The position numbers were made by a program, and so were the translations under genes. From Candidatus Omnitrophota bacterium (GTDB taxonomy: Bacteria; Omnitrophota; Omnitrophia; Omnitrophales; JACROU01): a stretch of 64,000 nucleotides of DNA. Within the stretch, counting starts at the first letter, position 1. Every line of letters begins with the position of its first letter. Below the pieces are notes generated by a model, which was not told where the DNA came from, searched no databases, and saw nothing but the letters and a program-made list of their open reading frames with translations. The DNA is taken from contig JAJDCD010000008.1 of NCBI GenBank assembly GCA_029261035.1, positions 162,313 to 226,312 of the forward strand, written 5' to 3'. Shown piece by piece: positions 15,251-27,507 of this stretch.

Positions 15251-15353
15251 TACATTTTACGAATTAAAACAAGAAAATAAGAAGCAAAAAGAATAACAAA
15301 AATAGTTAGCCCTATCCATTTGTAATAGTAAAAGTCTCTATCCATTTTTACTA

Positions 15354-15593
15354 TTACCCTTGAAGTCTGCTTAATTCATTTTCAACACGAGCAATTCCTT
15401 TTTTTAACTCGAAATAATATTTAGGATTAATCCTTAGAGCTTTCTTGGAAGGTCTATAATCTCCTTGTTCCTCTGCCTTAAAATAAACTCTCTGATCTAT
15501 AAAGGGTTTTCCTTCATAAACACCACAAACAATTCTAATCTCTTCTTGTTCATTAATCTGAAACGAGTGCAAAATCTTCTCTTCCATTACCAA
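15354..15593 (-). CDS. Small PC4/YdbC-like putative ssDNA-binding protein
   Basis: 79 aa. The pattern EIRIVCGVYEGKPFIDQRVYFKAEEQGDYRPSKKALRINPKYYFELKKGI resembles the PC4 fold (target, then Gk..vDiR.yy..dge..ptkKGisL). Weak, recognised by eye only. Confidence 0.35.
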   Translation of the reverse strand: MVMEEKILHSFQINEQEEIRIVCGVYEGKPFIDQRVYFKAEEQGDYRPSKKALRINPKYYFELKKGIARVENELSRLQG

Positions 15594-15660: not shown

Positions 15661-15972
15661 TTATTTTTTAATTTTTAGGAATTTTACCTTAGAATAAACC
15701 CAAAGAATAACTACAAAAGTAATAAAAGAAAAGCCCATGAAGAAATCTTCTATCGGAATAGTCCCAATACGAAACCCTGATATAGCATCTGATCCATAAA
15801 GAAATACGGGGCGTGAAGTAAGATAACCATTAACTATCAACTCTGCAAACATCATAACAGCAATAAAAATCAAAAACTTTAAATCCTTTAAAACATATGT
15901 CTTAAGAACTAAATCAAGAATAACAACAACAAGCACTGAGAGCAAGCCAAAGAGAGTATAACTAGGAATCAT
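15661..15972 (-). CDS. Lycopene cyclase domain protein, one half of a heterodimeric CrtYc/CrtYd-type cyclase
   Basis: 103 aa, 3 TM segments, and the characteristic PxE(E/D) motif (GTIPIEDFFMGF). Overlaps its partner by 11 bp at the end of the carotenoid cluster. Confidence 0.55.
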   Translation of the reverse strand: MIPSYTLFGLLSVLVVVILDLVLKTYVLKDLKFLIFIAVMMFAELIVNGYLTSRPVFLYGSDAISGFRIGTIPIEDFFMGFSFITFVVILWVYSKVKFLKIKK

Positions 15973-16291
15973 TTCGTTTCTCCCCTAGACGCACTCTGAG
16001 TTGAATAACCTCATATGTAAATATAGAAATAAATCCCAGGAAAAGAAAAAATAGATACTCTTCAATAGGTAAACCCAATAGTTTTAAACCCAATATATAA
16101 TCTGGATTAAAACTCCAATGTCCTTGATGAGACGCAAAAATATCCCACAACAAATAAATTGTTGATGGCAATAAAATAGAAAACAACATTGATTTCCAAA
16201 ATCGATACAATTTCAGATCACGATGATTTGCAACAATAAGAGGTATGCTTATACAAAGTATTAAAACAATAAAATATAAATATTTAATCAT
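15962..16291 (-). CDS. Lycopene cyclase domain protein, the second half of the heterodimeric CrtYc/CrtYd-type cyclase
   Basis: 109 aa, 3 TM segments, PxEE motif (LGLPIEEYLFFL). Confidence 0.55.
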   Translation of the reverse strand: MIKYLYFIVLILCISIPLIVANHRDLKLYRFWKSMLFSILLPSTIYLLWDIFASHQGHWSFNPDYILGLKLLGLPIEEYLFFLFLGFISIFTYEVIQLRVRLGEKRNDS

Positions 16292-17034
16292 GAAACAGCC
16301 TGAGTTTTAATCTTTCTAATACAAACTATTGCCACAGAAATAAAAGCAAAGCTTAAAAAAGTAGGTAAATAAAAACCCTTCAATAAAATACTCACACTAA
16401 ACAAAAACCAAAGAAGAAAATAAACAACTCCAGGAACCCAGTCCAATTGATCCCAAGAGCGCTCCTCAGGAGTTTGAATAAAAAGCAAAAGACAGAAACC
16501 AAAAACAAACCAGCTTACATAGTTTGATTTAGGAATCACATTCCCCTCCCAGATCCAATAATTAAAAACAGATGTCGCAAATGGCTCTAATACAATATCA
16601 AAAGCCAAAACAAATATAGATGCAAAAAGCGCCAATAGAAGCGGAGAGGCTTTGCCCCTAAATAACTTTAAAACCAAACCATAAGAGCTAACTACAACCA
16701 AATACCACGCTAGGCCAATTAATATGGGGACACCATAGACAGAATAGCTCAAGGCATCTGTGTAAGTATATTGCCCAAAAGGGATTCCTGTATGCACTCC
16801 CAATAGCTCTATTCCAATAGCAGAAAGAACAATTAAAAAAAACTGAGAAAAAGCTCTAGACCAAGAAACGTTAAGCGCTGCCCATATAAAAATAAGTATA
16901 GAAAAGAGGATCAGTGAAACAGAAGACGTAAACGCCCATGTCTCTGGAAGCTTATCAAAAGCTACAAAGTAAAGACTGAATGGAAATAAAAAAATAGAGA
17001 GATAAGTTAAATATAAGCAAATTTTCTTAAGCAT
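16288..17034 (-). CDS. Polytopic membrane protein, possibly a CruF-like carotenoid 1',2'-hydratase / carotenoid biosynthesis membrane protein
   Basis: 248 aa with ~7 TM segments, Trp-rich, embedded in the crt operon. The assignment rests on context plus size and topology. Confidence 0.35.
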   Translation of the reverse strand: MLKKICLYLTYLSIFLFPFSLYFVAFDKLPETWAFTSSVSLILFSILIFIWAALNVSWSRAFSQFFLIVLSAIGIELLGVHTGIPFGQYTYTDALSYSVYGVPILIGLAWYLVVVSSYGLVLKLFRGKASPLLLALFASIFVLAFDIVLEPFATSVFNYWIWEGNVIPKSNYVSWFVFGFCLLLFIQTPEERSWDQLDWVPGVVYFLLWFLFSVSILLKGFYLPTFLSFAFISVAIVCIRKIKTQAVS

Positions 17035-17602
17035 TAACCGCTTCCAATTCTTCTTTTGAGTTTAGAATAAATTCATTTAACATTTTATCCAACATCTCTT
17101 TAACGCGTTCACTCAAGAACTCTTCGCCCAATAAGGGGGCCATCCAATGAAATTTCAACCCATTAGAACGTGTGAATTTTAAATTCATAGAAATATTTAT
17201 TTGACTTTCATTATTCGGTTTAGGTTCTACTTTAATTTCACATCGCATAAAATCCTCTGATTCTTTAGGAGATGTGAATATCATATGATTCGAATTTAAA
17301 ACTTCTCTTTTAGAAATAAAGGTCCCTGTCATATCTCTAGCCATTGGCACAGGAATTTTTAAATCCCAAAGAAAATCCTCTCCCTTCAATTGTTCGATAC
17401 TCTCAATCCCTGGCAAGTTTCTAGAAATAAATTCAGGACTATTAAATGCCTGTAATTGATCCACGGAACGCGGCACTTCATATGTGACAGAAGTATTCGC
17501 ATTAACCACAAAATCTTTTGCATAGACACTCATAGGAATCAAACAAAAAAAACTAAAAAACAATAGACACCTTATTCCTCTAAACATAACATTCTCCTTC
17601 AT
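17027..17602 (-). CDS. Secreted hypothetical protein inside the carotenoid operon
   Basis: 191 aa with a signal peptide (MKENVMFRGIRCLLFFSFFCLIPMSVYA). No recognisable domain. Confidence 0.4.
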   Translation of the reverse strand: MKENVMFRGIRCLLFFSFFCLIPMSVYAKDFVVNANTSVTYEVPRSVDQLQAFNSPEFISRNLPGIESIEQLKGEDFLWDLKIPVPMARDMTGTFISKREVLNSNHMIFTSPKESEDFMRCEIKVEPKPNNESQINISMNLKFTRSNGLKFHWMAPLLGEEFLSERVKEMLDKMLNEFILNSKEELEAVNA

Positions 17603-18294
17603 TAGTTAATCTTCAATGACCCAAAACTATCCACAATAGAAAACCGTGCAAACAACTCTTCCTTATACCAATTTTCATCTCGAGTTCTTTTAATAACTCT
17701 TTTATGATCTTTACTATTATAAGCAAACTCCATCAAAGACTCTTCATTGTCCCATACACTAAAAGTAGCCTGTCGAAACCACGGAATCTCCCCAAAACCA
17801 ACAGAATGTCTCAGTCCTTTCATCGTCTCTAAGGAACGACTCACAGGCTCTACTTCGCTCCAAAATTGTGTCATACGACTCAAATGAATCGTAGCACGTG
17901 TCAAAATAGCAATAGGCCCATCTCCTTGACCCATCTCACTCGCTAAAAACAGACCGTCTCCATCCCATTTTCCAGCAGAACGTGTCGGTTCTAAAGCAAT
18001 CCATCCTAATTCTGTAGAACATTCTTCAAAGCGCTTATATATCCACGAGGTCTCTCTAAATCGCTCCCAATCCTCTTTTGACTCCCATGTGGTAAACAAA
18101 ACATACCGACTCCAATTTGGCTTCACACTAAACCCCAAACCACGCCCAGTGCCCCCCACCTTAGAAAACAAGAGCCCCTTAACCCGACTCAACTCCAAAG
18201 GATCCAAACCCGCACGCACAAATGCCAAAGGAACAAACCTCTTAGGATACTTCACAACAACAAACACAGCAAAAGAACTCAATCTCGACATCAA
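17602..18294 (-). CDS. CrtA-family carotenoid oxygenase (spheroidene monooxygenase / 2'-hydroxylase-like)
   Basis: 230 aa. Blocks ILTRATI, QATFSVWDNEESL and the C-terminal ELFARFSIVDSFGSL recall Rhodobacter CrtA (VLTRATV, ATFSLW, DLFARFEV..G). Confidence 0.5.
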   Translation of the reverse strand: MMSRLSSFAVFVVVKYPKRFVPLAFVRAGLDPLELSRVKGLLFSKVGGTGRGLGFSVKPNWSRYVLFTTWESKEDWERFRETSWIYKRFEECSTELGWIALEPTRSAGKWDGDGLFLASEMGQGDGPIAILTRATIHLSRMTQFWSEVEPVSRSLETMKGLRHSVGFGEIPWFRQATFSVWDNEESLMEFAYNSKDHKRVIKRTRDENWYKEELFARFSIVDSFGSLKIN

Positions 18295-18458
18295 ACCGCC
18301 TCATTCGATATTATTAGACCCACCTATAAGACAATGGAAAAAGTAAATCCTAAAACAACTACTCCATCCCATCAAAGGCGTAATCCCAATATTTCTAATA
18401 AATAGCAAAAACAAACAAGCATTTCGTTATTCAAAATAACGAAATAACATTAAACCAA

Positions 18459-18492
18459 GGAAAGAAGAGCCCTCGATGGCGCTCTTCTTTCC
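18459..18492. repeat. Perfect 12-bp stem hairpin (GGAAAGAAGAGC, 10-nt loop, GCTCTTCTTTCC) in the intra-operon spacer
   Basis: Read directly from the sequence. It is GC-rich relative to its surroundings. Confidence 0.5.
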
Positions 18493-18526
18493 AACGCTCC
18501 ACACTCCCATTTTACATTAAAGTCAT

Positions 18527-18620
18527 AAAAAAGATCTTCCCGCCGCGAGTTCACAAAAGCGACAGGCACCTTAGGTGACGGTCACTTTTGTGCTGTCTGA
18601 GCGCCGGGAAGATCTTTTTT
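18527..18620. repeat. 94-nt palindromic element: perfect 16-bp terminal inverted repeats (AAAAAAGATCTTCCCG / CGGGAAGATCTTTTTT) flanking a 62-nt core with nested palindromes (CACAAAAG...CTTTTGTG, GTGACGGTCAC)
   Basis: Read directly. It overlaps the stop codon region of the GT2 gene and sits 230 nt upstream of the CrtA-like start. Confidence 0.5.
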
Positions 18621-19751
18621 ATGCCCAACCCCACTCAAATAAACCCTCCCCTTCCAAGAAGCCCCCCTCTTAAAAACAAATATTCTAACAGAATTTAAAG
18701 CAATCACTAAAAACAGAATCATAGAAAATACATGAACAAAACAAGAAATAAGCCCTAACTTAAATCGAACCGCTAAAACAACCCTTATAAAAATAGCCAT
18801 CCCAACCATAATCACAGGAATAAAAATATCACCCCCCTTATAAACCCCTATCCCAATTTGAACATAAGGAAAAACAAAGAGAAAAAAACAAAGCATCATA
18901 AAAGCAAATATCCCTGGCAAGGAAAAATTAAATCCCGGAAATAAATTTTTAGAAAAACCTTCAAATATCCCTGAAAAATCTTGATACATACGACATTGAA
19001 CCAAAGCGAACCCATCTTTTATTAATAATTTCGACTTTATCTCTTTAACTCTCCTTGCCAACCAAACATCCTCAACCAGCTGATCTCGCACAGCTAAATG
19101 CCCTCCAATTTCTTCATAAACAGCCTTTTCAAACAACATAAACTGTCCATTCCCCATAGACAAGCTTGGAGTTTTTAATTGCGTCACAAGCCCAAAAGGA
19201 AGAAATAAAAATTCCATAAAGTGGAGCATCGGTAAACACAAACGTTCCCACAAACTCCCCATTTTTATTTGTGTAATCAAAGTCAAAAGGCCCCCACGCT
19301 CTTCTTTTAGAGTTCTTACAGAAGCCTTTAAACTCCTTGGATGATGCTCCGTATCTGCATCTGTGAACAAAAGCAACTCCCCATGAGCCTCTAGAGAAAG
19401 TTGGTGACACGCATAACATTTTCCTAACCACCCTTCAGGAAGATGATCCCCAGAGATTAATCTTAACTTCTCTACCCCAGCTCCGACCCTATTCACGACC
19501 TCATAGGTTCTGTCTTCAGACCGATCATCATAAACTAAGATTTCAAAATTTGGATAATCTTGATTTATCACACTATTAAGACAACGCTCTATATTCTCTT
19601 CTTCATTTCTTGCGGGGATAAGGATAGAAACAAATGGGTAAATTTCTAACTCTTGTTTTAAACCTATTCTTTTAAGCGCGAATAGATTCCAAAGAAAAAC
19701 AACAAAAAGACCCAATGAAATTGCTAATAATCCTAAATTAAAATAAATCAT
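18582..19751 (-). CDS. Family-2 glycosyltransferase, CrtQ/CruC-like carotenoid glycosyltransferase
   Basis: 389 aa. GT2 motifs (ILIPARNEEENIERCLNSVINQDYPNFEILVYDDRSEDRT, LLFTDADT) with C-terminal TM segments, inside the crt operon. Confidence 0.65.
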   Translation of the reverse strand: MIYFNLGLLAISLGLFVVFLWNLFALKRIGLKQELEIYPFVSILIPARNEEENIERCLNSVINQDYPNFEILVYDDRSEDRTYEVVNRVGAGVEKLRLISGDHLPEGWLGKCYACHQLSLEAHGELLLFTDADTEHHPRSLKASVRTLKEERGGLLTLITQIKMGSLWERLCLPMLHFMEFLFLPFGLVTQLKTPSLSMGNGQFMLFEKAVYEEIGGHLAVRDQLVEDVWLARRVKEIKSKLLIKDGFALVQCRMYQDFSGIFEGFSKNLFPGFNFSLPGIFAFMMLCFFLFVFPYVQIGIGVYKGGDIFIPVIMVGMAIFIRVVLAVRFKLGLISCFVHVFSMILFLVIALNSVRIFVFKRGASWKGRVYLSGVGHKKDLPGAQTAQK

Positions 19752-19757
19752 TCAAGT

Positions 19758-20501
19758 TTACCTTACCGAGTTTTGAGTTTTAGTACGAAATAAATCTACT
19801 TGAGAACTAATGGACTCTCTTCCTTTTTGAATTGTTATAAAATCTGAAAACTCTTTCTGAATCACAGCATCTCTTAATAGATCTAATTGAAAAATTAGTT
19901 TTTGATTCAGCTCTACATTTAATTCTTTCATATCTAAAAGAGAAGAATCTTCAATATATTGAACGGGTCCAAATTCTGTAAAAATCTCAGGTCGTTGCTC
20001 TTGAATAAATTCATAACGATGTGTCACTGGAACCAACTGAACTTTTCTTAATTTTTTTATGATATGAGTTACACCAGAAAAAAACTGAATAGGCCTCGCA
20101 TCATTTGGAGACATAACTCCTTGAGGATATATCCAGAGTGCATTTCTCCTTCCTTTAAGTTCTTCTACAGCATATTGAATGGATTGCATTGCTTTTCTGC
20201 TATCACCGCGATCGACACTAAAAGCACCAATCCATCGAAAGAAAGCATATTTTCTTAGCTGTTTAATATCCATCATCAAGATCGTATCCAATTCAAACAA
20301 CTTGTACGTCATATAAAAACAAAGAAGTCCATCCCACCAATTACTATGATTAGCATAAAAAATAATTGGAATATTTTTATCTAAACCTTTTAAATGCTCT
20401 AAACCTCGAACACGATGCGCATAGAAAAGTTTTGCAAGCGTACGTTGTGTCCACCATAAAAAGAATTTTTCAACAATAGGTAATTTATTCGTTTTAATCA
20501 T
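19758..20501 (-). CDS. PlsC-family acyltransferase, CrtO/CruD-like carotenoid-glycoside acyltransferase
   Basis: 247 aa. HX4D motif (ANHSNWWDG) and a PlsC-like fold, inside the crt operon. Confidence 0.6.
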   Translation of the reverse strand: MIKTNKLPIVEKFFLWWTQRTLAKLFYAHRVRGLEHLKGLDKNIPIIFYANHSNWWDGLLCFYMTYKLFELDTILMMDIKQLRKYAFFRWIGAFSVDRGDSRKAMQSIQYAVEELKGRRNALWIYPQGVMSPNDARPIQFFSGVTHIIKKLRKVQLVPVTHRYEFIQEQRPEIFTEFGPVQYIEDSSLLDMKELNVELNQKLIFQLDLLRDAVIQKEFSDFITIQKGRESISSQVDLFRTKTQNSVR

Positions 20502-20508
20502 AAAACCC

Positions 20509-22014
20509 TCATGCGGATACTTTTAAGTCTTCTTGAACCAAATTTGAAACCATTTTAGCAGAAAGTAAGACGAGAGGAATACCTCCTCCAGGATGAGTAC
20601 TTCCCCCGACAAAATAAAGCCCTTCAACCTCTTCACATCGATTAGAAGGTCTATTAAACGCAGACCATGGACTGTTCGAGGAAAGCCCATATAAAGAACC
20701 TCTATAGGCCCCATAATTTTTTTCAAATTCTAACGGAGTCCATATTTTTTCGTAACAGATATTACTATTTAACCCGCTCAAACCGGCTATTTCTAATTGA
20801 TGAACAATCAAGTCTCTATACTTATACTTTTCTACGTCCCAATCAATCTTAGAACCTTCGCTTATGGAAGGAACGTTCACCAACACAAACAAATTACTAG
20901 TCCCATCAGGAGCTAATGTAGCATCACTTTTCTTAGAGATACTCACATAAATTGTCGGCTCCGGGGCAGGAATCTTTTGCTCAAAAAGAGCCTCAAACTC
21001 TTCCTTATAATCTTTAGAGAAGAAAATATTATGGTGCGACAAATTCGGATATTCTTTTTTTACTCCAAGTTGCAAAACAAATCCGGAAGTGGACATATCA
21101 TTGCTCTTCTCTAACTCTTTCAGGTTTTTATTTAATTGGGAAGAGGGAATTAATCTCTTATAAACTTGTAACGCATCTGTGTTTGCTATTATCTTCTCTG
21201 CTTCCAAAACCGATCCATCTACTAATTCAACCCCTCTAACGGCTCCTTCTTCTACTAAAATCTCTTTAACCACTTGTTCTTTCCGGATCTCTACACCAAG
21301 CTCCACTGCAAACTGTTCCAAAACCTCAACCAATTTGTACATTCCTCCTTTAGGATACCAACCGCCCATCGTATGTTCAATATAAGGGATGATGGAAAAA
21401 GTTGCCGGAGTTTTATAAGGTGAAGAGCCATTATAAGTCGCAAAACGATTAAATACCTGTTTAAGTCTCTCATCTTTAAATGTGCTAGAAACCATTTGGC
21501 TTAAAGTTCGAAATGGATCCAACTTCCAAAATTGAAGAAGTGATTTCCAATGAGTAAGAAAAAACTTTGGGCCCCAGCTTCCATTACTCTCAAATAAAAA
21601 TGGTTTTGAAGCAATAGAGTAAACCCGCTTCCCATGATTTAAAATTTTCTTAAAAGATTGCACCTCATCCGGGTTAAAAGCTTCCAGATAAGAATATGTT
21701 TTATCCATATTATTAGAAATATCCAGCTGACTGCCATCTGAAAAAAAATAACGACACAGTGGATCGACTGGCATCAGATCTAAATAGTCTTCTATTCGTT
21801 TTCCTAAATTTTCAAACAAATCTTCCAAGACAAAAGGCATCGTTAATAAAGTTGGCCCACAATCAAAGGTAAAACCACCCTCTTTGATTTGACTTAACTT
21901 CCCACCCAAATATCCGTTTTTTTCTAATAAAGTTACCTTATAGCCTGCGTGAGATAAATAAAGGCTACTAACAAGCCCTCCCAACCCACCACCAACAATA
22001 AGCACTTTATTCAT
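20509..22014 (-). CDS. crtD: CrtI-family carotenoid desaturase (CrtD-like 3',4'-desaturase)
   Basis: 501 aa. N-terminal FAD fold (VLIVGGGLGGLVSSLYL) and the C-terminal CrtI-family signature FVGGSTHPGGGIPLVLLSA. Confidence 0.7.
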   Translation of the reverse strand: MNKVLIVGGGLGGLVSSLYLSHAGYKVTLLEKNGYLGGKLSQIKEGGFTFDCGPTLLTMPFVLEDLFENLGKRIEDYLDLMPVDPLCRYFFSDGSQLDISNNMDKTYSYLEAFNPDEVQSFKKILNHGKRVYSIASKPFLFESNGSWGPKFFLTHWKSLLQFWKLDPFRTLSQMVSSTFKDERLKQVFNRFATYNGSSPYKTPATFSIIPYIEHTMGGWYPKGGMYKLVEVLEQFAVELGVEIRKEQVVKEILVEEGAVRGVELVDGSVLEAEKIIANTDALQVYKRLIPSSQLNKNLKELEKSNDMSTSGFVLQLGVKKEYPNLSHHNIFFSKDYKEEFEALFEQKIPAPEPTIYVSISKKSDATLAPDGTSNLFVLVNVPSISEGSKIDWDVEKYKYRDLIVHQLEIAGLSGLNSNICYEKIWTPLEFEKNYGAYRGSLYGLSSNSPWSAFNRPSNRCEEVEGLYFVGGSTHPGGGIPLVLLSAKMVSNLVQEDLKVSA

Positions 22015-22522
22015 GAGATGAGTTTTTTAAGGTTAGTTGATGATAACGTTTTTTTAATGCAGAAGGAACAATCGGAAACAACAATCCATAAGGTTCTCCA
22101 CCAAATAAATGATGAATACGATGAGAATGATAATGCCAAGAGAAAATATTTTTCTTTATACGAAAAAATGGGATTCTTCCATGAACCACAATATCATGAA
22201 TTAAAAAGTAAAGAAGCCCATATGCTGTAATACCAAAACCGAAAGAAATTAAATATTTCAAACTCGGAACAAAAATACCTAAAGCAATAACAGACATAGT
22301 TATTAAAGCTGAAATTCCTGGATAAAAATCATTCAGCTCCCACCCATTGCTCTTAGGAGCAAAATTATGAATCAGCTTTTTCTGGCCTTCTCTTCGATTA
22401 TGACTCGAATGATGACTGCGATGTAAAGGAACGCCAAATCCATGGAAGATGTAGCGATGAGACAAATAGGTGATAGGCTCCATAACAACTAAACCTAAAA
22501 AGAACAAATAGACCTCAACCAT
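22007..22522 (-). CDS. crtZ: Beta-carotene hydroxylase (fatty acid hydroxylase superfamily)
   Basis: 171 aa with four histidine boxes (HRYIFHG, HRSHHSSH, HDIVVHG, HSHRIHH) and membrane helices. Confidence 0.7.
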   Translation of the reverse strand: MVEVYLFFLGLVVMEPITYLSHRYIFHGFGVPLHRSHHSSHNRREGQKKLIHNFAPKSNGWELNDFYPGISALITMSVIALGIFVPSLKYLISFGFGITAYGLLYFLIHDIVVHGRIPFFRIKKNIFSWHYHSHRIHHLFGGEPYGLLFPIVPSALKKRYHQLTLKNSSHE

Positions 22523-23404
22523 TTAAGATCTCCTATTCATTAGATACTGAACAAATCCTTTTAGATTATCCTTAGCTTCAGAAGACTGAATCTGTTGCAA
22601 ACACTGAATTGCTTCTGACAAGTATTCCTTAACCTTTTTCTCAGCAACATCAATCTTAGCCATTTCTCCATTAACTCCCAAAGTCCCTACCCAGGTCGTT
22701 TTGTTGTTTTTCTCATCCAAACTAGTATCTTTACCTGTTTCTTGACTACAACCCACCAAATCAAGCAAATCATCTTGGATCTGAAAAGCAAAACCTAAGG
22801 ACCGTCCGAAAGAACCAAACAAGTCGACATCTTCCTCAGGAGATCCTCCTATAATTGCTCCTGATTTTGCTGCAAAATAAATAAGGGAGGCCGTTTTCTT
22901 TTCAATAACTTCAAGAAGTGCTTCTGGGGTTAAAACTTTACTGTCGTTGACCCACTCTTCCAAAGCCTGGCCTTCACAAAGCTCTTTATACGTCTGATTC
23001 ATTAAATGCAGCACCGAAACATTATACGGCTCCTTCAGTCGAAACATTTCTTCATAAGCTAAAGAAACCAAGAAGTCTCCGCACAAAAGCCCCATCTTAT
23101 CTCCATAAGCAGCATGCACTGTAGGCTGCCCTCTTCTCATCGAAGCAGAGTCCATCATATCATCATGAATCAGTGAAGCCGTATGCAGCAACTCTATTGC
23201 TACTGCCGCAGGAAGAGCTTCTGAAACATCGCCTCCTACAGCTTCAGAAGAAAGAAGGGTAATAATAGGACGAACACGTTTCCCTTGCTTTAACAAACTC
23301 TCCAAAGGTTCTTTCATTGGACTGGATCCTAATGATTCCGTAATAACATTCAGTCGAGTCTGAACTAATTCTCTATAACTATCTAAAATGTCTGGGCAAT
23401 TCAT
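22523..23404 (-). CDS. crtE: Geranylgeranyl diphosphate synthase (polyprenyl synthetase)
   Basis: 293 aa. First and second aspartate-rich motifs LIHDDMMD and FQIQDDLLD. Confidence 0.8.
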   Translation of the reverse strand: MNCPDILDSYRELVQTRLNVITESLGSSPMKEPLESLLKQGKRVRPIITLLSSEAVGGDVSEALPAAVAIELLHTASLIHDDMMDSASMRRGQPTVHAAYGDKMGLLCGDFLVSLAYEEMFRLKEPYNVSVLHLMNQTYKELCEGQALEEWVNDSKVLTPEALLEVIEKKTASLIYFAAKSGAIIGGSPEEDVDLFGSFGRSLGFAFQIQDDLLDLVGCSQETGKDTSLDEKNNKTTWVGTLGVNGEMAKIDVAEKKVKEYLSEAIQCLQQIQSSEAKDNLKGFVQYLMNRRS

Positions 23405-23430
23405 ATCTATGGATTACACTCCTATAAACT

Positions 23431-24312
23431 TTATGCTCTTTTGCTTTTAAAACAGAGTTGAACTAATAATAATACTTTTTTCCAAAAAGAGACATAAACT
23501 CTTCCGGACAACACATCATAGTTTTTCGCCTCAATCTCATCTAAAATCTTTTCATACAAACCACTCATAACACGAACACAAAAACGTGAGCTGACTCCAT
23601 TCAACATTCCAATCCCTTTATCTGCTTCTCTATAAAACTGCCGTGCTCTTTGAATTTGAAATTTTCCAAAAGGAATAAATTTACTCGATACATGTTTATG
23701 AGCAAACTCAGAAGCATCAACTCCGTAAGAACTCAATTCTTCTTGAGGTAAGTAGATACGTCCCATATCATAGTCTTCTTTTACGTCCCTTAAAATATTA
23801 GTTAACTGCATTGCTTTACCCAGTGAAATTGCATACGGATAAGCCTCTTTAGACGAAACTCCAAAAACATGACTCATAATCAATCCTACAACAGAGGCAA
23901 CTCTATAACAATACAAATCAAGCTCTTCCCACGTATTATACCGATGCTGGGTCAAATCCATCTCAACACCCTTAATCAAATCAACCCAGTATTCCTTTGG
24001 TATTTTATGAGAAATTACAACTTCTTGAAAAAGACGAAAGGGAGATTGCTTCTCAAGAATATCAGAATATACAGAATCCAATATTGCATACAAAGCTGCT
24101 GCATATTTTTTCTTTTCTTCTAAGCTCGCTGTCTCTTCATCTAAAAGATCATCCGCATAACGACAAAAACTGTAAATCACATAAGCGGCCTTCCTCTTCT
24201 TAGACGACAGCATAAAGGATGCGAAATAAAAGGTTTTCGCGTGATGCCTCGTATATTTCGCAGAAGCTTTCATTAAATCCATCTCAGGATAATCCGAAAG
24301 AAAAGGCTTCAT
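23431..24312 (-). CDS. crtB: Phytoene synthase
   Basis: 293 aa. Squalene/phytoene synthase motifs YCYRVASVVGL and RDVKEDYDMGRIYLP. Confidence 0.85.
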   Translation of the reverse strand: MKPFLSDYPEMDLMKASAKYTRHHAKTFYFASFMLSSKKRKAAYVIYSFCRYADDLLDEETASLEEKKKYAAALYAILDSVYSDILEKQSPFRLFQEVVISHKIPKEYWVDLIKGVEMDLTQHRYNTWEELDLYCYRVASVVGLIMSHVFGVSSKEAYPYAISLGKAMQLTNILRDVKEDYDMGRIYLPQEELSSYGVDASEFAHKHVSSKFIPFGKFQIQRARQFYREADKGIGMLNGVSSRFCVRVMSGLYEKILDEIEAKNYDVLSGRVYVSFWKKVLLLVQLCFKSKRA

Positions 24313-25799
24313 AAATTAAAATCTTCCACGATACACTTATCCGTCGCCTCAGATGACAACAAGACGCCAGGCACGCCACCTCCAGGATGAGTACCCGCCC
24401 CAACAAAATAGAGACGCTCGATATCTTCACTGCGATTATGAGGTCTAAAATAAGCGCTTTGCATCAATCGGGGTTCAATAGCAAAAGCATTCCCTAAATG
24501 AGAGTTCAGTTTATTCTTAAAATCATCCGGTGTAAATACTTCCATCACCTCTATATTATCCTTCAGACCTTCCATCCCCATCTTTTCTTCTAAACGATCC
24601 AAAACTTTATTTGTAAAAGGCTCTATTTCTTTTTTCCAATCAATTCCACTTTTTAGATTAGGAACCGGAATCAACACATACAAACTTTCGCAACCCTTAG
24701 GAGCCATATTAGAATCACTTTTTGTTGGGGCATGTAAGTACATAGAAAACTCCTCAGGAATAATCTGCCGATCAAAAATATCTTTAACTAATTCTTTATA
24801 TTCTGAACCCAAAACAATCGTATGATGTTTCAGCTGAGGAAATTGTTTCTTAACACCCAAATAGAGCAAAACACAGCTCATGGTCATGTGAATTTTATCA
24901 ATTCGTTTATCTGTCCACTTTTTTCTCCATTTAGAATCAATCAGATTCTTGTATACAATAGGAATATCAGCATTACACACAACACAATCCGCCTTTAAAA
25001 CTTCGTTTTCTAGCTCAATTCCTCGAGCAACTCCATCTTCAACGACAATTTTCTTTACTTCCGTATGAGTCCTTACCGTCCCCCCTATTTCTTTAAAAAC
25101 AGATTCCATCGCTTTTACTAAACTATACATTCCCCCTTTCGCAAACCACACTCCTCCTACTTTTTCAAGATAAGGAATCATCACATAGACGCTAGGAGCC
25201 TTCCAAGGAGAACCTCCAATAAATAGCGGATGAAATGAAAACATAAACCGATGGAACTCATGTTTGAAATACTGAGCTGTAAAGGAATAAACAGGTAGGA
25301 AAGCTTTCAACTTGATTGCCTGTGGAGCAAACTTAAGCATAGAACCCCAACTCATAAAAGGCTGCGCTCCTAAACCATCCGTAATAATGGCATCATACAC
25401 CCCTTTAATATCCTTAAAAAAAGCATCGTAACGATCTGCGTCTCTTTGACTATAACAAGCCATTTGGGATTTAATATTTTCAGCATTCCCATTGTAATCA
25501 ATGTACTTACCATCACTAAAGTAGATTCTGTAATAAGGATCTAAGGACTCTAACTCAACATAATCTGAGAGTTTTTTTCCAGCCAAAGAAAAAAGCCGTT
25601 CTATAATAAAAGGAGCTGTAATTAAAGAAGGCCCCATATCAAAGGTGTAGCCTTCTTTCTTAAGTTGATAAGCCCGACCTCCAACCTGCTCTCTCTTTTC
25701 AACCAAAGTAACATCAAAACCTTTAGCTTGAAGACGAATCGCAGAAGACAGCCCTCCAAACCCCGCACCAATAACAATCGCTTTTTTTCTTTGTTCCAC
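24309..25799 (-). CDS. crtI: Phytoene desaturase
   Basis: 496 aa. Dinucleotide-binding site VIGAGFGGLSSA and the C-terminal FVGAGTHPGGGVPGVLLS. Confidence 0.85.
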   Translation of the reverse strand: MEQRKKAIVIGAGFGGLSSAIRLQAKGFDVTLVEKREQVGGRAYQLKKEGYTFDMGPSLITAPFIIERLFSLAGKKLSDYVELESLDPYYRIYFSDGKYIDYNGNAENIKSQMACYSQRDADRYDAFFKDIKGVYDAIITDGLGAQPFMSWGSMLKFAPQAIKLKAFLPVYSFTAQYFKHEFHRFMFSFHPLFIGGSPWKAPSVYVMIPYLEKVGGVWFAKGGMYSLVKAMESVFKEIGGTVRTHTEVKKIVVEDGVARGIELENEVLKADCVVCNADIPIVYKNLIDSKWRKKWTDKRIDKIHMTMSCVLLYLGVKKQFPQLKHHTIVLGSEYKELVKDIFDRQIIPEEFSMYLHAPTKSDSNMAPKGCESLYVLIPVPNLKSGIDWKKEIEPFTNKVLDRLEEKMGMEGLKDNIEVMEVFTPDDFKNKLNSHLGNAFAIEPRLMQSAYFRPHNRSEDIERLYFVGAGTHPGGGVPGVLLSSEATDKCIVEDFNL

Positions 25800-25959: not shown

Positions 25960-26607
25960 TTAAATTTTAATGTTAAAAACCTTACCTGAGGACTTTTCTC
26001 TGAGCTGAATACCTTTAGAATTAACTCCCACCAAGACGAATCCATCTAGCTCTTCACCCATCTCTAATATCTCATCACCAATCATTGCTGCCTCATTTCC
26101 AGCTTCATCAATAATTCCAGTAACTTTAAATTTACTCTCAACTCTACGACTTGCGCTGGCTTCTTGAGGTAAAACAACAGGTTTTTTCTCAACAGGAGTT
26201 ATCACAACGGGTCTAGGGCTAACAGGAACAACCGCAGACTTACTCCCTGTTTCTATTTTAGGGCCTGTAACCACAGAAATATATGACTCCTTATACTTTT
26301 CCTTCAAGATAGGTTGAACATAATATTGAAAAATAAAAAAACAAAGCCCCACTAATGCAATCAGCAACCCTCCAAAAAGAATATAAGAAAATTTTGATGC
26401 TTTTTTATTACTGTCAAACTCTCCAATAGGCTCGACCAGAACAGGCTCAGCATGAAAATCCTGCTCTTCGGATAAACTAGCAGTATCTTCCGAGTTATCC
26501 CCTGAAAGGTTATTGCTAGGAACTCTAGATAACACAGATTGATCCTGAGATCCTTTACCTTTTTTTTCAAGTTCTGCTTTTTTAAGAGCTTCTGTAATAA
26601 TGCTCAA
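25960..26607 (-). CDS. GspB/ExeB-like bitopic partner of the ExeA ATPase
   Basis: 215 aa: cytoplasmic N-terminus, one TM (FSYILFGGLLIALVGLCFFIF), then a Pro/Val-rich periplasmic region. It lies 12 nt downstream of the ExeA-like gene. Confidence 0.35.
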   Translation of the reverse strand: MSIITEALKKAELEKKGKGSQDQSVLSRVPSNNLSGDNSEDTASLSEEQDFHAEPVLVEPIGEFDSNKKASKFSYILFGGLLIALVGLCFFIFQYYVQPILKEKYKESYISVVTGPKIETGSKSAVVPVSPRPVVITPVEKKPVVLPQEASASRRVESKFKVTGIIDEAGNEAAMIGDEILEMGEELDGFVLVGVNSKGIQLREKSSGKVFNIKI

Positions 26608-26619
26608 AACAAATCCTCT

Positions 26620-27507
26620 TTAATAAGTTAAAATTGCTTCTTTTTCTTTCAACTCTTTTTCTTTATTTTTTTGATTAAGTTCTGAAGCTTCAGTATCGGG
26701 AGACTTACCTTCTATTTCATCTCTGGCATGTTCAACAAGTTCTCTTCCAATAACTTTTTTATCTCTAACAAAAGCTGCCAACAATGCTTTATCACAAAGA
26801 ACATTAACAAGACGGGGAACCCCTTTTGAATAAGTAAAAATGACCTCTAACGCTTCTGCGTCAAAAGGACAATCTTTTTCAAACCCTGTGACACTTAATC
26901 GATAATCAATGTATTTAACCAGTTCTTCTCTATCTAAAGCTTTTAAATGATATCGAATACTGATTCTTTGTCGCAATTGAGTCAAAGCCGGATTTTTTAA
27001 GTGATCTCTTAGCTCCGGTTGCCCCACCAATATAATTTGCAGCAGCTTCTCTCTCTCAGTTTCTAAATTAGAAAGCAAGCGTATCTGCTCTAAAGCTCTA
27101 GGCTTCAAGTTCTGAGCTTCATCAATAATCAAAACAGCATTCCCCCCATTTCTCAGTTCTTCTAAAAGAAATGCATTCAAAGCATCGAAACACCCTTTTT
27201 TTGTTTTATTCTTAGGTTGGATTCCAAAATCTTCCACAATAGCTTGTAAAAGCTGTGAATCCGATAAGTCTGAGTTAAACACAAAAGAAGTTTTTACTTT
27301 TCCCTTAAGATCATTAATAAGAGCTCGACACAAAGTCGTCTTACCCGCACCAATCTCTCCTGTAATTTCTAAAAAACCTTTTTTCTGGTCGATTCCATAC
27401 AAAAGAGATGCAAAAGCTTCTAAATGTTTTTTTGAAAAATAAATAAATCGAGGATCAGGAGTCATGTTAAAAGGATTTTCTTTGAAGCCAAAGAAATCAT
27501 TATACAT
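26620..27507 (-). CDS. ExeA/GspA/MshM-family AAA ATPase
   Basis: 295 aa. N-terminus MYNDFFGFKENPFNMTPDPRFIYFSKKHLEAF with Walker A GEIGAGKTTLCRAL and Walker B LIIDEAQNL, the hallmark of ExeA. Confidence 0.7.
   Translation of the reverse strand: MYNDFFGFKENPFNMTPDPRFIYFSKKHLEAFASLLYGIDQKKGFLEITGEIGAGKTTLCRALINDLKGKVKTSFVFNSDLSDSQLLQAIVEDFGIQPKNKTKKGCFDALNAFLLEELRNGGNAVLIIDEAQNLKPRALEQIRLLSNLETEREKLLQIILVGQPELRDHLKNPALTQLRQRISIRYHLKALDREELVKYIDYRLSVTGFEKDCPFDAEALEVIFTYSKGVPRLVNVLCDKALLAAFVRDKKVIGRELVEHARDEIEGKSPDTEASELNQKNKEKELKEKEAILTY

What the first reader, a model, noticed from the sequence alone, without database searches (positions are those of the whole stretch)
15661..25799. Compact carotenoid operon predicting a monocyclic hydroxylated carotenoid glycoside fatty-acid ester (myxol/salinixanthin/myxobacton-like)
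The contiguous minus-strand genes are crtI, crtB, crtE, crtZ, a CrtD-like desaturase, a PlsC-type acyltransferase, a GT2 glycosyltransferase, a CrtA-family oxygenase, a secreted unknown, a CruF-like membrane protein and a split CrtYc/CrtYd cyclase. A lone C-1' hydratase candidate, a 3',4'-desaturase, a 3-hydroxylase, a CrtA-type oxygenase, a glycosyltransferase and an acyltransferase together are the enzymology of acylated myxol or keto-torulene glycosides. No CrtO/CrtW ketolase is visible. The exact end product and the role of the secreted 191-aa protein (17027-17602) are open.
Basis: partly seen in the sequence, partly recalled or inferred. Interest (0 to 1): 0.6.

Follow-up and report, generated by a model that had tools for sequence, protein, structure and literature searches.

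The report
Carotenoid glycoside-ester operon in Omnitrophota
This is a real 12-gene pigment operon in an uncultured Omnitrophota bacterium that should make a one-ringed, hydroxylated carotenoid carrying a fatty-acylated sugar; this chemistry is already known, and the only new element is a rare secreted lipid-binding-fold protein that always sits beside the hydratase gene.

Summary
Twelve tightly packed minus-strand ORFs lie at exactly 15661-25799, and eleven have carotenoid-pathway family matches: CrtI, CrtB, a GGPP-synthase-like prenyltransferase, CrtZ-like, CrtD-like, a PlsC-type acyltransferase, a GT2, CrtA-like, CruF-like and two lycopene-cyclase subunits. No ketolase is present.

The set equals the experimentally reconstituted myxol gene set of Nonlabens spongiae, plus a glycosyl/acyl module like the one behind salinixanthin. 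The likely product is therefore a myxol- or saproxanthin-type acyl glycoside.

- **CrtA-like protein:** it keeps the heme-ligand histidine and the CrtA fold. By context it is more likely a 2'-hydroxylase than a ketolase. Only 3 of about 20 related clusters carry it.
- **The "secreted 191-aa unknown":** it is a signal-peptide-bearing SRPBCC/START-fold protein. Its clade is very rare (53 representatives among 1.84 billion proteins). In 17 of 19 related contigs with downstream sequence it lies immediately upstream of cruF. I infer a periplasmic carotenoid-binding or transfer role; this is untested.
- **Host:** Candidatus Omnitrophota, from LeuRS identity of 74% to its best hit.

Verdict: a new variant of a known kind, of moderate interest.

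The parts
24309..25799 (-). crtI, phytoene desaturase (GTG start)
   Evidence: TIGR02734 at 560 bits, above its 238 cutoff; Amino_oxidase at 134 bits. It is the first gene of the cluster. The upstream neighbour differs between relatives L001 and L004.
23431..24312 (-). crtB, phytoene synthase
   Evidence: PF00494 SQS_PSY at 255 bits. Overlaps crtI by 4 nt.
22523..23404 (-). crtE-like short-chain prenyl diphosphate (GGPP) synthase
   Evidence: PF00348 at 209 bits. The best NCBIfam hit is IdsA at 215 bits, below its equivalog cutoff. Both DDxxD motifs are visible in the translation. The chain length of its product is inferred.
22007..22522 (-). crtZ-like beta-ring 3-hydroxylase
   Evidence: PF04116 at 29.2 bits (gathering score 31). 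His motifs HRYIFH, HRSHH, HDIVVH and HRIHH are in the translation. tblastn hits the crtZ loci of 95 Pantoea plasmids at 32-35% identity.
20509..22014 (-). crtD-like carotenoid 3',4'-desaturase (CrtI family)
   Evidence: TIGR02734 at 437 bits. The CrtD model NF042421 scores 373 bits, against 240 bits for the first CrtI paralogue; both are below the 500 cutoff.
19758..20501 (-). PlsC/LPLAT-type acyltransferase (CruD-like role)
   Evidence: PF01553 at 46 bits. Homologues sit next to a GT2 and carotenoid genes on Cytobacillus and Azospirillum plasmids.
18582..19751 (-). GT2 carotenoid glycosyltransferase (CruC/CruG/HpnB-like)
   Evidence: PF00535 at 93 bits. HpnB scores 179 and CruG 114 bits, both below their equivalog cutoffs. 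The last ~13 codons are encoded by a palindromic element.
18295..18623 (-). Hairpin-rich spacer between the two gene blocks: a ~100-nt nested palindrome (18524-18623), a GC-rich terminator-like hairpin and an AT hairpin
   Evidence: RNA fold energy -117 kcal/mol, z = -6.9 against shuffles. Inverted repeat I1 has 23-nt arms that are 96% complementary. The terminator-like site is at 18477-18454. There is no Rfam match. Its function is not established.
17602..18294 (-). crtA-like heme monooxygenase, probable carotenoid 2'-hydroxylase (TTG at 18294, or ATG at 18291)
   Evidence: NF045923 at 178 bits, below the 300 cutoff. It is 29% identical to Roseobacter litoralis CrtA, with H197, T132/R133, T177 and R217 invariant and R205 conserved in at least 90% of sequences. 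The AF2 model has pLDDT 94.5, and its Foldseek hits include 3MCS, 3A15 and 5LOQ, structures that PMC13488962 lists for CrtA.
17027..17602 (-). Secreted SRPBCC/START-fold protein of a carotenoid-cluster-specific clade (alternative ATG at 17587)
   Evidence: The AF2 model has pLDDT 81. Foldseek hits 3p9v, 2ns9 (COXG), ZhuI/TcmN and CoxG 8uds at E 3e-9 to 2e-6. All 13 clade members carry a Sec-type AxA signal peptide. The gene lies immediately upstream of cruF in 17 of 19 related contigs with downstream sequence.
16288..17034 (-). cruF-like carotenoid 1',2'-hydratase (membrane protein)
   Evidence: PF04240 at 111 bits. CruF equivalog models score 50-88 bits, below their cutoffs. Overlaps the SRPBCC gene by 8 nt.
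15962..16291 (-). Lycopene cyclase subunit (CrtYc/Yd type), first half
   Evidence: PF18916 at 56 bits.
15661..15972 (-). Lycopene cyclase subunit (CrtYc/Yd type), second half
   Evidence: PF18916 at 46.6 bits. It is the last gene of the cluster; the downstream neighbours differ in L001, L003 and L004.

Best explanation
The region is a complete carotenoid operon in a Candidatus Omnitrophota genome. It is organised as two translationally coupled blocks: crtI-B-E-Z-D-acyltransferase-GT2, and crtA-like-SRPBCC-cruF-cyclase subunits.

Inferred pathway:
1. CrtE, CrtB and CrtI make lycopene.
2. The heterodimeric cyclase closes one end, giving gamma-carotene.
3. CruF hydrates the open end (1'-OH).
4. 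CrtD introduces the 3',4' double bond.
5. The CrtA-like heme enzyme adds a 2'-hydroxyl.
6. CrtZ adds the 3-hydroxyl. The aglycone at this point is myxol.
7. The GT2 attaches a sugar, most parsimoniously at the 1'-OH, because orthologous GT2s serve relatives that lack CrtA.
8. The PlsC-type acyltransferase esterifies the sugar with a fatty acid.

The product would be a 3-hydroxy, 4-deoxo analogue of salinixanthin, that is, a myxol acyl glycoside.

The 191-aa protein is exported and adopts an SRPBCC lipid-pocket fold. I infer that it binds the carotenoid or its glycolipid on the periplasmic side. It would act either as a carrier towards the outer membrane or as a partner of CruF.

What is shown: gene identities at family level, synteny, folds, and conserved residues. 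What is inferred: every catalytic step, the regiochemistry, and the role of the SRPBCC protein.
For: - HMM assignments for 11 of the 12 genes.
- The gene set equals the myxol set reconstituted step by step in E. coli (PMC11855829).
- GT2/acyltransferase pairs recur beside carotenoid genes in other bacteria. The CruC/CruD logic for salinixanthin-type acyl glycosides is described in PMC5822342.
- No ketolase is present.
- The same cluster, in the same order, occurs in relatives L001, L004, L094 and L095, at 39-72% protein identity.
- The CrtA-like protein keeps the residues shown to be essential in C. sphaeroides CrtA: the His ligand, an invariant Thr/Arg pair (T132/R133), T177 and two Arg (R205, R217). 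It also has the same fold neighbours.
- For the SRPBCC protein: fold, signal peptides, and strict adjacency to cruF down to 24% identity and across loci of 30-70% GC.
- Homologues below about 21% identity are not in carotenoid contexts, which bounds the clade.
- LptE and a BamD-like protein in the window show that the host has an outer membrane.
- Host assignment: LeuRS is 74%, 64% and 63% identical to Omnitrophota MAGs.
Against: - No pigment or expression data exist, and the organism is uncultured.
- Scores for the CrtD-like, CrtA-like, CruF-like, GT2 and prenyl-synthase proteins fall below NCBIfam equivalog cutoffs. Only family membership is established, not exact function.
- CrtA-family enzymes can make either 2-keto or 2-hydroxy groups (PMC5822342 citing Lee et al. 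2010).
- The glycosylation site and whether the cyclase closes one end or both cannot be read from sequence.
- A structured 287-nt gap with a terminator-like hairpin splits the cluster, so co-expression of the two blocks is not assured.
- The SRPBCC carrier role rests only on fold, export signal and synteny. An invariant Cys121, Arg145 and His152 could equally indicate catalysis.
Confidence: 0.65

Rival explanations
1. The main product is a bicyclic zeaxanthin glycoside fatty-acid ester (thermozeaxanthin-like). The cyclase would close both ends, CrtZ would hydroxylate them, and the GT2 and acyltransferase would act on the 3-OH. CruF, CrtD and CrtA would serve only a minor branch.
For: CrtYc/Yd-type cyclases can close one end or both. 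In Nonlabens, CrtY alone gave mainly beta-carotene, and the monocyclic route dominated only when CruF was co-expressed (PMC11855829). The regiochemistry of the GT2 is untested.
Against: CruF and CrtD are conserved in every complete related cluster, and the cruF-cyclase genes are translationally coupled. That makes little sense for a minor branch, because both enzymes need an open psi end.
Confidence: 0.12
2. The CrtA-like enzyme is a 2'-ketolase, like spheroidene monooxygenase. The end product would be a 2'-keto-1'-glycosyloxy monocyclic carotenoid rather than a 2'-hydroxy one.
For: The only curated model hit is spheroidene monooxygenase, at 178 bits. The heme ligand and substrate-contacting residues are conserved. 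CrtA enzymes are reported to act as both ketolases and hydroxylases.
Against: The score is below the equivalog cutoff of 300. The closest named relatives (38-46% identity) are Bacteroidota proteins (Mucilaginibacter, Pelobium, Adhaeribacter, Pontibacter), the phylum in which the characterised 2-hydroxylase CrtA-OH is found, whereas purple-bacterial CrtA is 29-36% identical. The heme-propionate Arg188 equivalent is Tyr in all the non-purple sequences aligned. No CrtF methyltransferase is present. The gene context is the myxol set.
Confidence: 0.15
3. The SRPBCC protein is not a carrier. It is an enzyme, or an obligatory subunit of CruF, for example presenting the psi end for hydration or catalysing a further modification.
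For: The gene overlaps cruF by 8 nt and is almost always its immediate upstream neighbour. Cys121, Arg145, His152 and the HW[LM]AP motif are invariant. SRPBCC members include cyclases and aromatases such as ZhuI and TcmN.
Against: Characterised CruF enzymes work in E. coli without such a partner (PMC11855829). A cleavable Sec signal peptide places the protein outside the cytoplasm, away from the NDP-sugar- and acyl-donor-dependent steps. In L007 and L008 the gene is not next to cruF.
Confidence: 0.3

Closest known systems
Myxol biosynthesis cluster of Nonlabens spongiae / Flavobacterium sp. [quoted passage not shown]
   Same: It has the same eight enzymatic functions: GGPP synthase, phytoene synthase and desaturase, cyclase, CruF hydratase, CrtD 3',4'-desaturase, a CrtA-type oxygenase and CrtZ. 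Each step was reconstituted in E. coli (PMC11855829).
   Different: The cyclase here is a split CrtYc/Yd type rather than CrtY. A GT2, an acyltransferase and a secreted SRPBCC protein are added. crtE lies inside the cluster. The host is Omnitrophota, not Bacteroidota. The CrtA-like protein is only 38-46% identical to its closest named Bacteroidota homologues.
Salinixanthin and carotenoid acyl glycosides of Salinibacter ruber and Rhodothermus marinus (CruC glycosyltransferase, CruD acyltransferase)
   Same: These are monocyclic carotenoids with a 1'-glycoside esterified by a fatty acid, found with and without an extra hydroxyl. The GT-plus-acyltransferase logic is the same (PMC5822342).
   Different: Salinixanthin carries a 4-keto group (CrtO). 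This cluster has CrtZ and no ketolase. In Rhodothermus no CrtA, CruF or CrtD homologue could be identified, whereas all three are present here.
Spheroidene monooxygenase CrtA of purple bacteria (NF045923)
   Same: It shares the tandem ferredoxin-like (ABM) fold, the axial His ligand (H197 here, H194 in C. sphaeroides), the threonines and two of the three propionate-binding arginines.
   Different: Identity is 29-36%. The score of 178 bits is below the cutoff of 300. The R188 equivalent is Tyr. There is no C-terminal proline-rich tail. No photosynthesis genes or crtF are present, so the probable substrate is a 1'-hydroxy psi end rather than a methoxy one.
CoxG (SRPBCC quinone-extracting protein of Mo-CO dehydrogenase) and START-domain carotenoid-binding proteins (Bombyx mori CBP)
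   Same: They share the helix-grip fold with a hydrophobic pocket. CoxG extracts menaquinone from the membrane (PMC12202499), and BmCBP binds zeaxanthin (bioRxiv 10.1101/2022.06.28.497953). PDB 8uds and the COXG-family entry 2ns9 are among the Foldseek hits.
   Different: Identity is only 12-18%. The window protein itself reaches no Pfam threshold. It has a Sec signal peptide rather than a C-terminal lipid anchor. No ligand has been demonstrated. It occurs in carotenoid clusters of uncultured bacteria only.

Membership tests
Myxol-type monocyclic carotenoid pathway (PMC11855829) | Presence of crtE, crtB, crtI, a lycopene cyclase, cruF, crtD, a crtA-type oxygenase and crtZ | tested here: met
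   All eight functions are matched at family level in one cluster.
Myxol-type monocyclic carotenoid pathway (PMC11855829) | Product is myxol (3,1',2'-trihydroxy-3',4'-didehydro-gamma-carotene skeleton) | not testable with these tools
   This needs heterologous expression and LC-MS/NMR.
Carotenoid acyl-glycoside module (CruC/CruD-like) | A GT2-family glycosyltransferase adjacent to a PlsC/LPLAT-type acyltransferase within a carotenoid cluster | tested here: met
   PF00535 at 93 bits and PF01553 at 46 bits, 6 nt apart. The same pairing occurs beside carotenoid genes on Cytobacillus and Azospirillum plasmids.
CruG 2'-O-glycosyltransferase (NF045692) | Score at or above the curated equivalog cutoff (600 bits) | tested here: not met
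   114 bits. The protein is a related GT2 but not a CruG equivalog. No CruC reference sequence was available to test.
CrtA spheroidene monooxygenase (NF045923) | Score at or above the curated equivalog cutoff (300 bits) | tested here: not met
   178 bits over model positions 20-222 of 226. This is homologous across the full length but outside the purple-bacterial equivalog.
CrtA superfamily (heme-dependent carotenoid C-2 oxygenases, including CrtA-OH) | Axial His heme ligand, propionate-binding Arg residues and substrate-proximal Thr residues (PMC13488962) | tested here: met
   H197, T132, T177 and R217 are invariant and R205 is nearly invariant in alignments that include Roseobacter litoralis CrtA. 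The R188 equivalent is Tyr192.
CrtA superfamily (heme-dependent carotenoid C-2 oxygenases, including CrtA-OH) | Pseudo-symmetric tandem ferredoxin-like (ABM) alpha-beta barrel | tested here: met
   The AF2 model has pLDDT 94.5. Its Foldseek hits include 3MCS, aldoxime dehydratase 3A15 and HemQ 5LOQ, three of the structures reported as neighbours of C. sphaeroides CrtA.
CrtA-OH carotenoid 2-hydroxylase (Flavobacterium P99-3 type) | Closer to characterised CrtA-OH than to ketolase CrtA; 2-hydroxylase activity | not tested
The closest named homologues are Bacteroidota proteins at 38-46% identity.
CruF carotenoid 1,2-hydratase (PF04240 Caroten_synth) | Pfam family membership above the gathering score | tested here: met
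   111 bits against a cutoff of 25, covering 204 of 209 model positions.
CruF equivalogs (TIGR03460, NF041333, NF045693) | Score at or above the curated cutoffs (154.7, 300 and 400 bits) | tested here: not met
   88, 52 and 50 bits. This is a divergent subfamily, so hydratase activity is inferred from family and context.
CrtZ beta-carotene 3-hydroxylase | Four histidine motifs of the di-iron fatty-acid hydroxylase family, and homology to Pantoea CrtZ | tested here: met
   HX4H, HX2HH, HX4H and HX2HH are present. It is 32-35% identical to Pantoea crtZ loci over 82-99% of its length. Pfam PF04116 scores 29.2 bits, marginally below the gathering score of 31.
Heterodimeric lycopene cyclase CrtYc/CrtYd | Two adjacent genes of about 100 aa, each with one Lycopene_cyc (PF18916) domain | tested here: met
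   56 and 46.6 bits; the genes overlap by 11 nt.
SRPBCC (START/Bet v 1/CoxG/polyketide cyclase) superfamily | Helix-grip fold: beta-alpha-alpha-beta6 followed by a long C-terminal helix | tested here: met
   The AF2 model has pLDDT 81 and that topology. Foldseek probability is 1.00 to 3p9v, 2ns9, 3tfz and 8uds. Of 45 family members scanned, 12 hit Polyketide_cyc2 and 7 hit COXG.
SRPBCC (START/Bet v 1/CoxG/polyketide cyclase) superfamily | Binding of a hydrophobic ligand (here a carotenoid) in the pocket | not testable with these tools
   This needs expression in a carotenoid-producing host plus spectroscopy.

The most novel reading that the evidence does not exclude
The signal-peptide-bearing SRPBCC clade encoded next to cruF is a dedicated periplasmic carotenoid carrier. 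It would extract the finished carotenoid acyl glycoside from the inner membrane and deliver it to the outer membrane of these diderm bacteria. That would be the first bacterial protein assigned to carotenoid trafficking between membranes, and a bacterial counterpart of animal START-domain carotenoid-binding proteins.
Probability: 0.25. Interest if true: 0.7.

Novelty: new variant of a known kind. Interest (0 to 1): 0.4.

Why it matters
The enzymology is textbook carotenoid chemistry, so the cluster itself is not surprising. Three things give it some value.

1. It places a complete pigment pathway with oxygen-dependent steps in Omnitrophota. (CrtZ and the CrtA-like enzyme use O2, by established knowledge of these families.) This is an uncultured phylum, and I found no report of carotenoid synthesis in it within the searchable library.
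2. It pairs a CrtA-type oxygenase with the acyl-glycoside module. This offers a candidate for the 2'-hydroxylation step that could not be assigned in Rhodothermus (PMC5822342).
3. It exposes a very rare, uncharacterised, exported SRPBCC clade that is essentially always embedded in such clusters. This gives a concrete, testable candidate for how bacteria handle or move carotenoids outside the cytoplasmic membrane.

Tried and rejected
- **Exact look-ups failed.** Look-ups of the window's SRPBCC protein and of P0006, the database protein 100% identical to the window's CrtA-like protein, found no contig. The source genome appears not to be retrievable.
- **Species-representative genomes.** A scan with the SRPBCC alignment found no relative.
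- **Cluster-member names.** These gave no organism names.
- **Word-indexed profile search of the SRPBCC family.** It added no named or cultured member.
- **Plasmid search.** tblastn of two SRPBCC members against plasmids found nothing.
- **Diverse 45-sequence alignment.** It was too variable for a metagenome scan, so a 13-sequence alignment was used instead.
- **SRPBCC fusion to CruF or the cyclase.** P0146 and P0154, which are longer than the rest, only carry low-complexity tails.
- **Upstream 215-aa ORF as a cluster member.** It is a partner of the AAA_22 ATPase (GspB-like by eye, not tested), conserved in L001 but replaced in L004, so it is outside the cluster.
- **Rhodopsin or ketolase in the window.** None was found.
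- **Known RNA family in the hairpin-rich gap.** The only hit was a chance-level one at E = 0.85.
- **Literature.** Searches combining SRPBCC with carotenoid clusters returned nothing relevant.

Full report
**Observation**

They form two tightly packed blocks.
- Within crtI-crtB-crtE-crtZ-crtD-acyltransferase-GT2, spacing runs from a 26-nt gap to an 8-nt overlap.
- Within crtA-like-191 aa-cruF-cyclase-cyclase, every junction overlaps by 1 to 11 nt.
- The two blocks are separated by a 287-nt gap.

The whole 64-kb window is co-oriented on the minus strand. Its GC content is about 37%, with negative GC skew throughout.

**Gene identities**

| Gene | Best family match | Notes |
|---|---|---|
| CrtI | TIGR02734, 560 bits | |
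| CrtB | SQS_PSY, 255 bits | |
| Prenyl diphosphate synthase | PF00348, 209 bits | Both DDxxD motifs present |
| Second CrtI-family protein | CrtD model, 373 bits | The first paralogue scores 240 bits on the same model, so the order CrtI then CrtD is supported; both are below the equivalog cutoff |
| Acyltransferase | PF01553 | PlsC type |
| Glycosyltransferase | GT2 (PF00535) | Nearest curated models are HpnB (179 bits) and CruG (114 bits), both below cutoff |
| 248-aa protein | PF04240 (CruF family), 111 bits | Below all three CruF equivalog cutoffs |
| Two ~100-aa proteins | Lycopene_cyc (PF18916) | |
| 171-aa protein | FA_hydroxylase, 29.2 bits (gathering score 31) | See below |

The 171-aa protein only just misses the FA_hydroxylase threshold. 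It carries the four His motifs (HRYIFH, HRSHH, HDIVVH, HRIHH). It also matches the crtZ loci of 95 Pantoea plasmids at 32-35% identity.

Neither CrtI paralogue resembles CrtO (104-117 bits against a cutoff of 1000). No FA_desaturase (CrtW) domain occurs in any other window ORF scanned, which covers nearly all ORFs of at least 100 aa.

**The CrtA-like protein (230 aa)**

- It matches the spheroidene monooxygenase model over its full length at 178 bits. This is below the equivalog cutoff of 300.
- Its 100%-identical database copy is 229 aa, which implies an ATG start at 18291.
- The closest homologues (50-54% identity) come from the same kind of cluster. The next named ones are Bacteroidota proteins at 38-46%. 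Purple-bacterial CrtA from plasmid-borne photosynthesis clusters is 29-36% identical.
- In C. sphaeroides CrtA, His194 is the axial heme ligand and is essential. R188, R202 and R214 bind the propionates, and T128 and T173 lie near the substrate (PMC13488962).
- In my alignments, H197, T132/R133, T177 and R217 are invariant and R205 is nearly so. The R188 position is Tyr in every non-purple sequence.
- An AlphaFold model (pLDDT 94.5) shows the tandem ferredoxin-like barrel. It retrieves three of the structures that paper lists as neighbours of CrtA: 3MCS, aldoxime dehydratase 3A15 and HemQ 5LOQ.

So it is a genuine member of the CrtA superfamily but not a purple-bacterial equivalog.

**Function of the CrtA-like protein**

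In Flavobacterium P99-3 and Nonlabens spongiae the CrtA homologue (CrtA-OH) hydroxylates C-2' of 1'-hydroxytorulene (PMC11855829). The gene context here is that same set, with no crtF. I therefore favour 2'-hydroxylation, but a ketolase activity cannot be excluded from sequence.

**Predicted product**

The Nonlabens work reconstituted the pathway step by step in E. coli: lycopene, then gamma-carotene, then 1'-OH-gamma-carotene (CruF), then 1'-OH-torulene (CrtD), then deoxymyxol (CrtA-OH), then myxol (CrtZ). The window cluster encodes all of these functions, plus a GT2 and an acyltransferase.

Rhodothermus and Salinibacter make monocyclic 1'-glycosides esterified with a fatty acid, with and without an extra hydroxyl. 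These are attributed to a CruC glycosyltransferase and a CruD acyltransferase (PMC5822342). GT2-acyltransferase pairs homologous to the window's also sit beside carotenoid genes on Cytobacillus and Azospirillum replicons.

Orthologous GT2s (42-50% identity) serve related clusters that lack the CrtA-like gene and so lack a 2'-OH. The 1'-OH is therefore the most parsimonious sugar acceptor. That gives a myxol 1'-acylglycoside, in other words salinixanthin with a 3-hydroxyl in place of the 4-keto group. This is inference; regiochemistry, sugar and acyl chain are unknown.

**The 191-aa "secreted unknown"**

- It has no Pfam or NCBIfam hit and only five close homologues among 5.8 billion proteins.
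- A profile search of 1.84 billion representatives found 53 proteins.
- The AlphaFold model (pLDDT 81) has an N-terminal hydrophobic helix followed by a beta-alpha-alpha-beta6-long-helix domain.
- Foldseek places it in the SRPBCC superfamily: 3p9v, the COXG-family entry 2ns9, the ZhuI and TcmN cyclases, and M. smegmatis CoxG 8uds. Some relatives reach Polyketide_cyc2 or COXG thresholds.
- All 13 close clade members have Sec-type signal peptides with small residues at positions -3 and -1.
- The mature domain has a single invariant Cys, plus invariant Arg145 and His152 and an HW[LM]AP motif.

**Genomic association of the SRPBCC clade**

I looked at about 20 distinct metagenomic contigs that carry a clade member (24-72% identity, GC 30-70%). 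Every one has carotenoid genes adjacent.
- In 17 of the 19 contigs with downstream sequence, cruF is the very next gene. The usual order is GT2-SRPBCC-cruF-cyclase-cyclase.
- The association survives rearrangement. L106 reads crtB-SRPBCC-cruF-cyclases-crtD-crtI-acyltransferase. In L007 the gene follows crtD and precedes a CrtW-like desaturase.
- More distant SRPBCC homologues (about 21% identity) lie in unrelated contexts, which bounds the clade.

**Inferred role of the SRPBCC protein**

SRPBCC pockets are known to extract quinones from membranes (CoxG, PMC12202499) and to bind zeaxanthin (Bombyx CBP START domain, bioRxiv 10.1101/2022.06.28.497953). The host has LptE and a BamD-like protein, so it has an outer membrane. 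My best inference is a periplasmic carotenoid-binding or transfer protein. A catalytic role or a CruF-subunit role is the main rival.

**Cluster boundaries and variation**

Relatives L001, L004, L094 and L095 share the same gene order from crtI to the second cyclase subunit. Their neighbours on both sides differ, which fixes the boundaries.

The CrtA-like gene is present only in the window, L004 and L093. It has the highest GC content in the cluster (42.4% against 36.8%). In the window it follows a hairpin-rich spacer made up of:
- a ~100-nt nested palindrome that also encodes the last ~13 codons of the GT2;
- a GC-rich terminator-like hairpin;
- an AT hairpin.

The spacer folds with z = -6.9 against shuffles, is unique in the window and has no Rfam match. 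L001 has an unrelated long palindrome at the equivalent position. I did not resolve whether these are terminators, processing sites or small mobile palindromes.

**Host**

The window's LeuRS is 74%, 64% and 63% identical to Candidatus Omnitrophota MAGs. It is at most about 59% identical to genomes labelled as other phyla, apart from two 'uncultured Planctomycetia' MAGs at 63%. A 2858-aa protein with two kinase domains is also present. I found no paper in the searchable library that describes carotenoid synthesis in Omnitrophota. This is a limited negative.

**Verdict**

The chemistry belongs to a known kind, the myxol and salinixanthin family. The variant features are the combination of a CrtA-type oxygenase with the acyl-glycoside module, the Omnitrophota host, and above all the conserved exported SRPBCC partner of cruF. 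Interest is moderate at 0.4. It would be higher if the SRPBCC protein proves to be a carotenoid carrier.

Noticed in passing
window 18452-18623: A ~100-nt nested, near-perfect palindrome (23-nt outer arms, 96% complementary) overlaps the last ~13 codons of the GT2 gene. A GC-rich terminator-like hairpin and an AT hairpin follow it. The RNA fold has z = -6.9, the element is unique in the window, and there is no Rfam match. Relative L001 has an unrelated long palindrome at the same intergenic position (L001:9888-9985).
   Followed up: partly
window 1-64000: Every substantial ORF (about 50) lies on the minus strand, and GC skew is negative across the whole 64 kb. This is extreme gene-strand bias for a diderm bacterium.
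   Followed up: no
window 48242-56818: A giant 2858-aa protein carries two Ser/Thr protein kinase domains (around residues 720-981 and 1804-2082). Relative L001 encodes a 4018-aa protein with no Pfam hit directly after its carotenoid cluster.
   Followed up: no
L003:2218-5055; L004:10904-13839: In groundwater relatives the carotenoid cluster is followed by a SAM methyltransferase, a radical-SAM protein (DUF3641) and a small GT2. By eye this trio resembles arsenosugar/arsenolipid genes. It is absent from the window.
   Followed up: no
window 15353-15586: A small 77-aa ORF (MEEKILHSFQINEQEEIRIV...) with a good ribosome-binding site lies between the last cyclase gene and comEC. It is not annotated by any search run here.
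   Followed up: no
window 17602-18294: The crtA-like gene has the highest GC content of the cluster (42.4% against a window mean of 36.8%) and is missing from most related clusters. This hints that it was acquired separately.
   Followed up: partly
window 25960-27507: Directly upstream of the cluster is an AAA_22 ATPase paired with a 215-aa protein that has an N-terminal 'SIITEALKKAE' motif and one transmembrane segment. By eye this looks like an ExeA/GspA-GspB pair. The pair is conserved in L001.
   Followed up: partly
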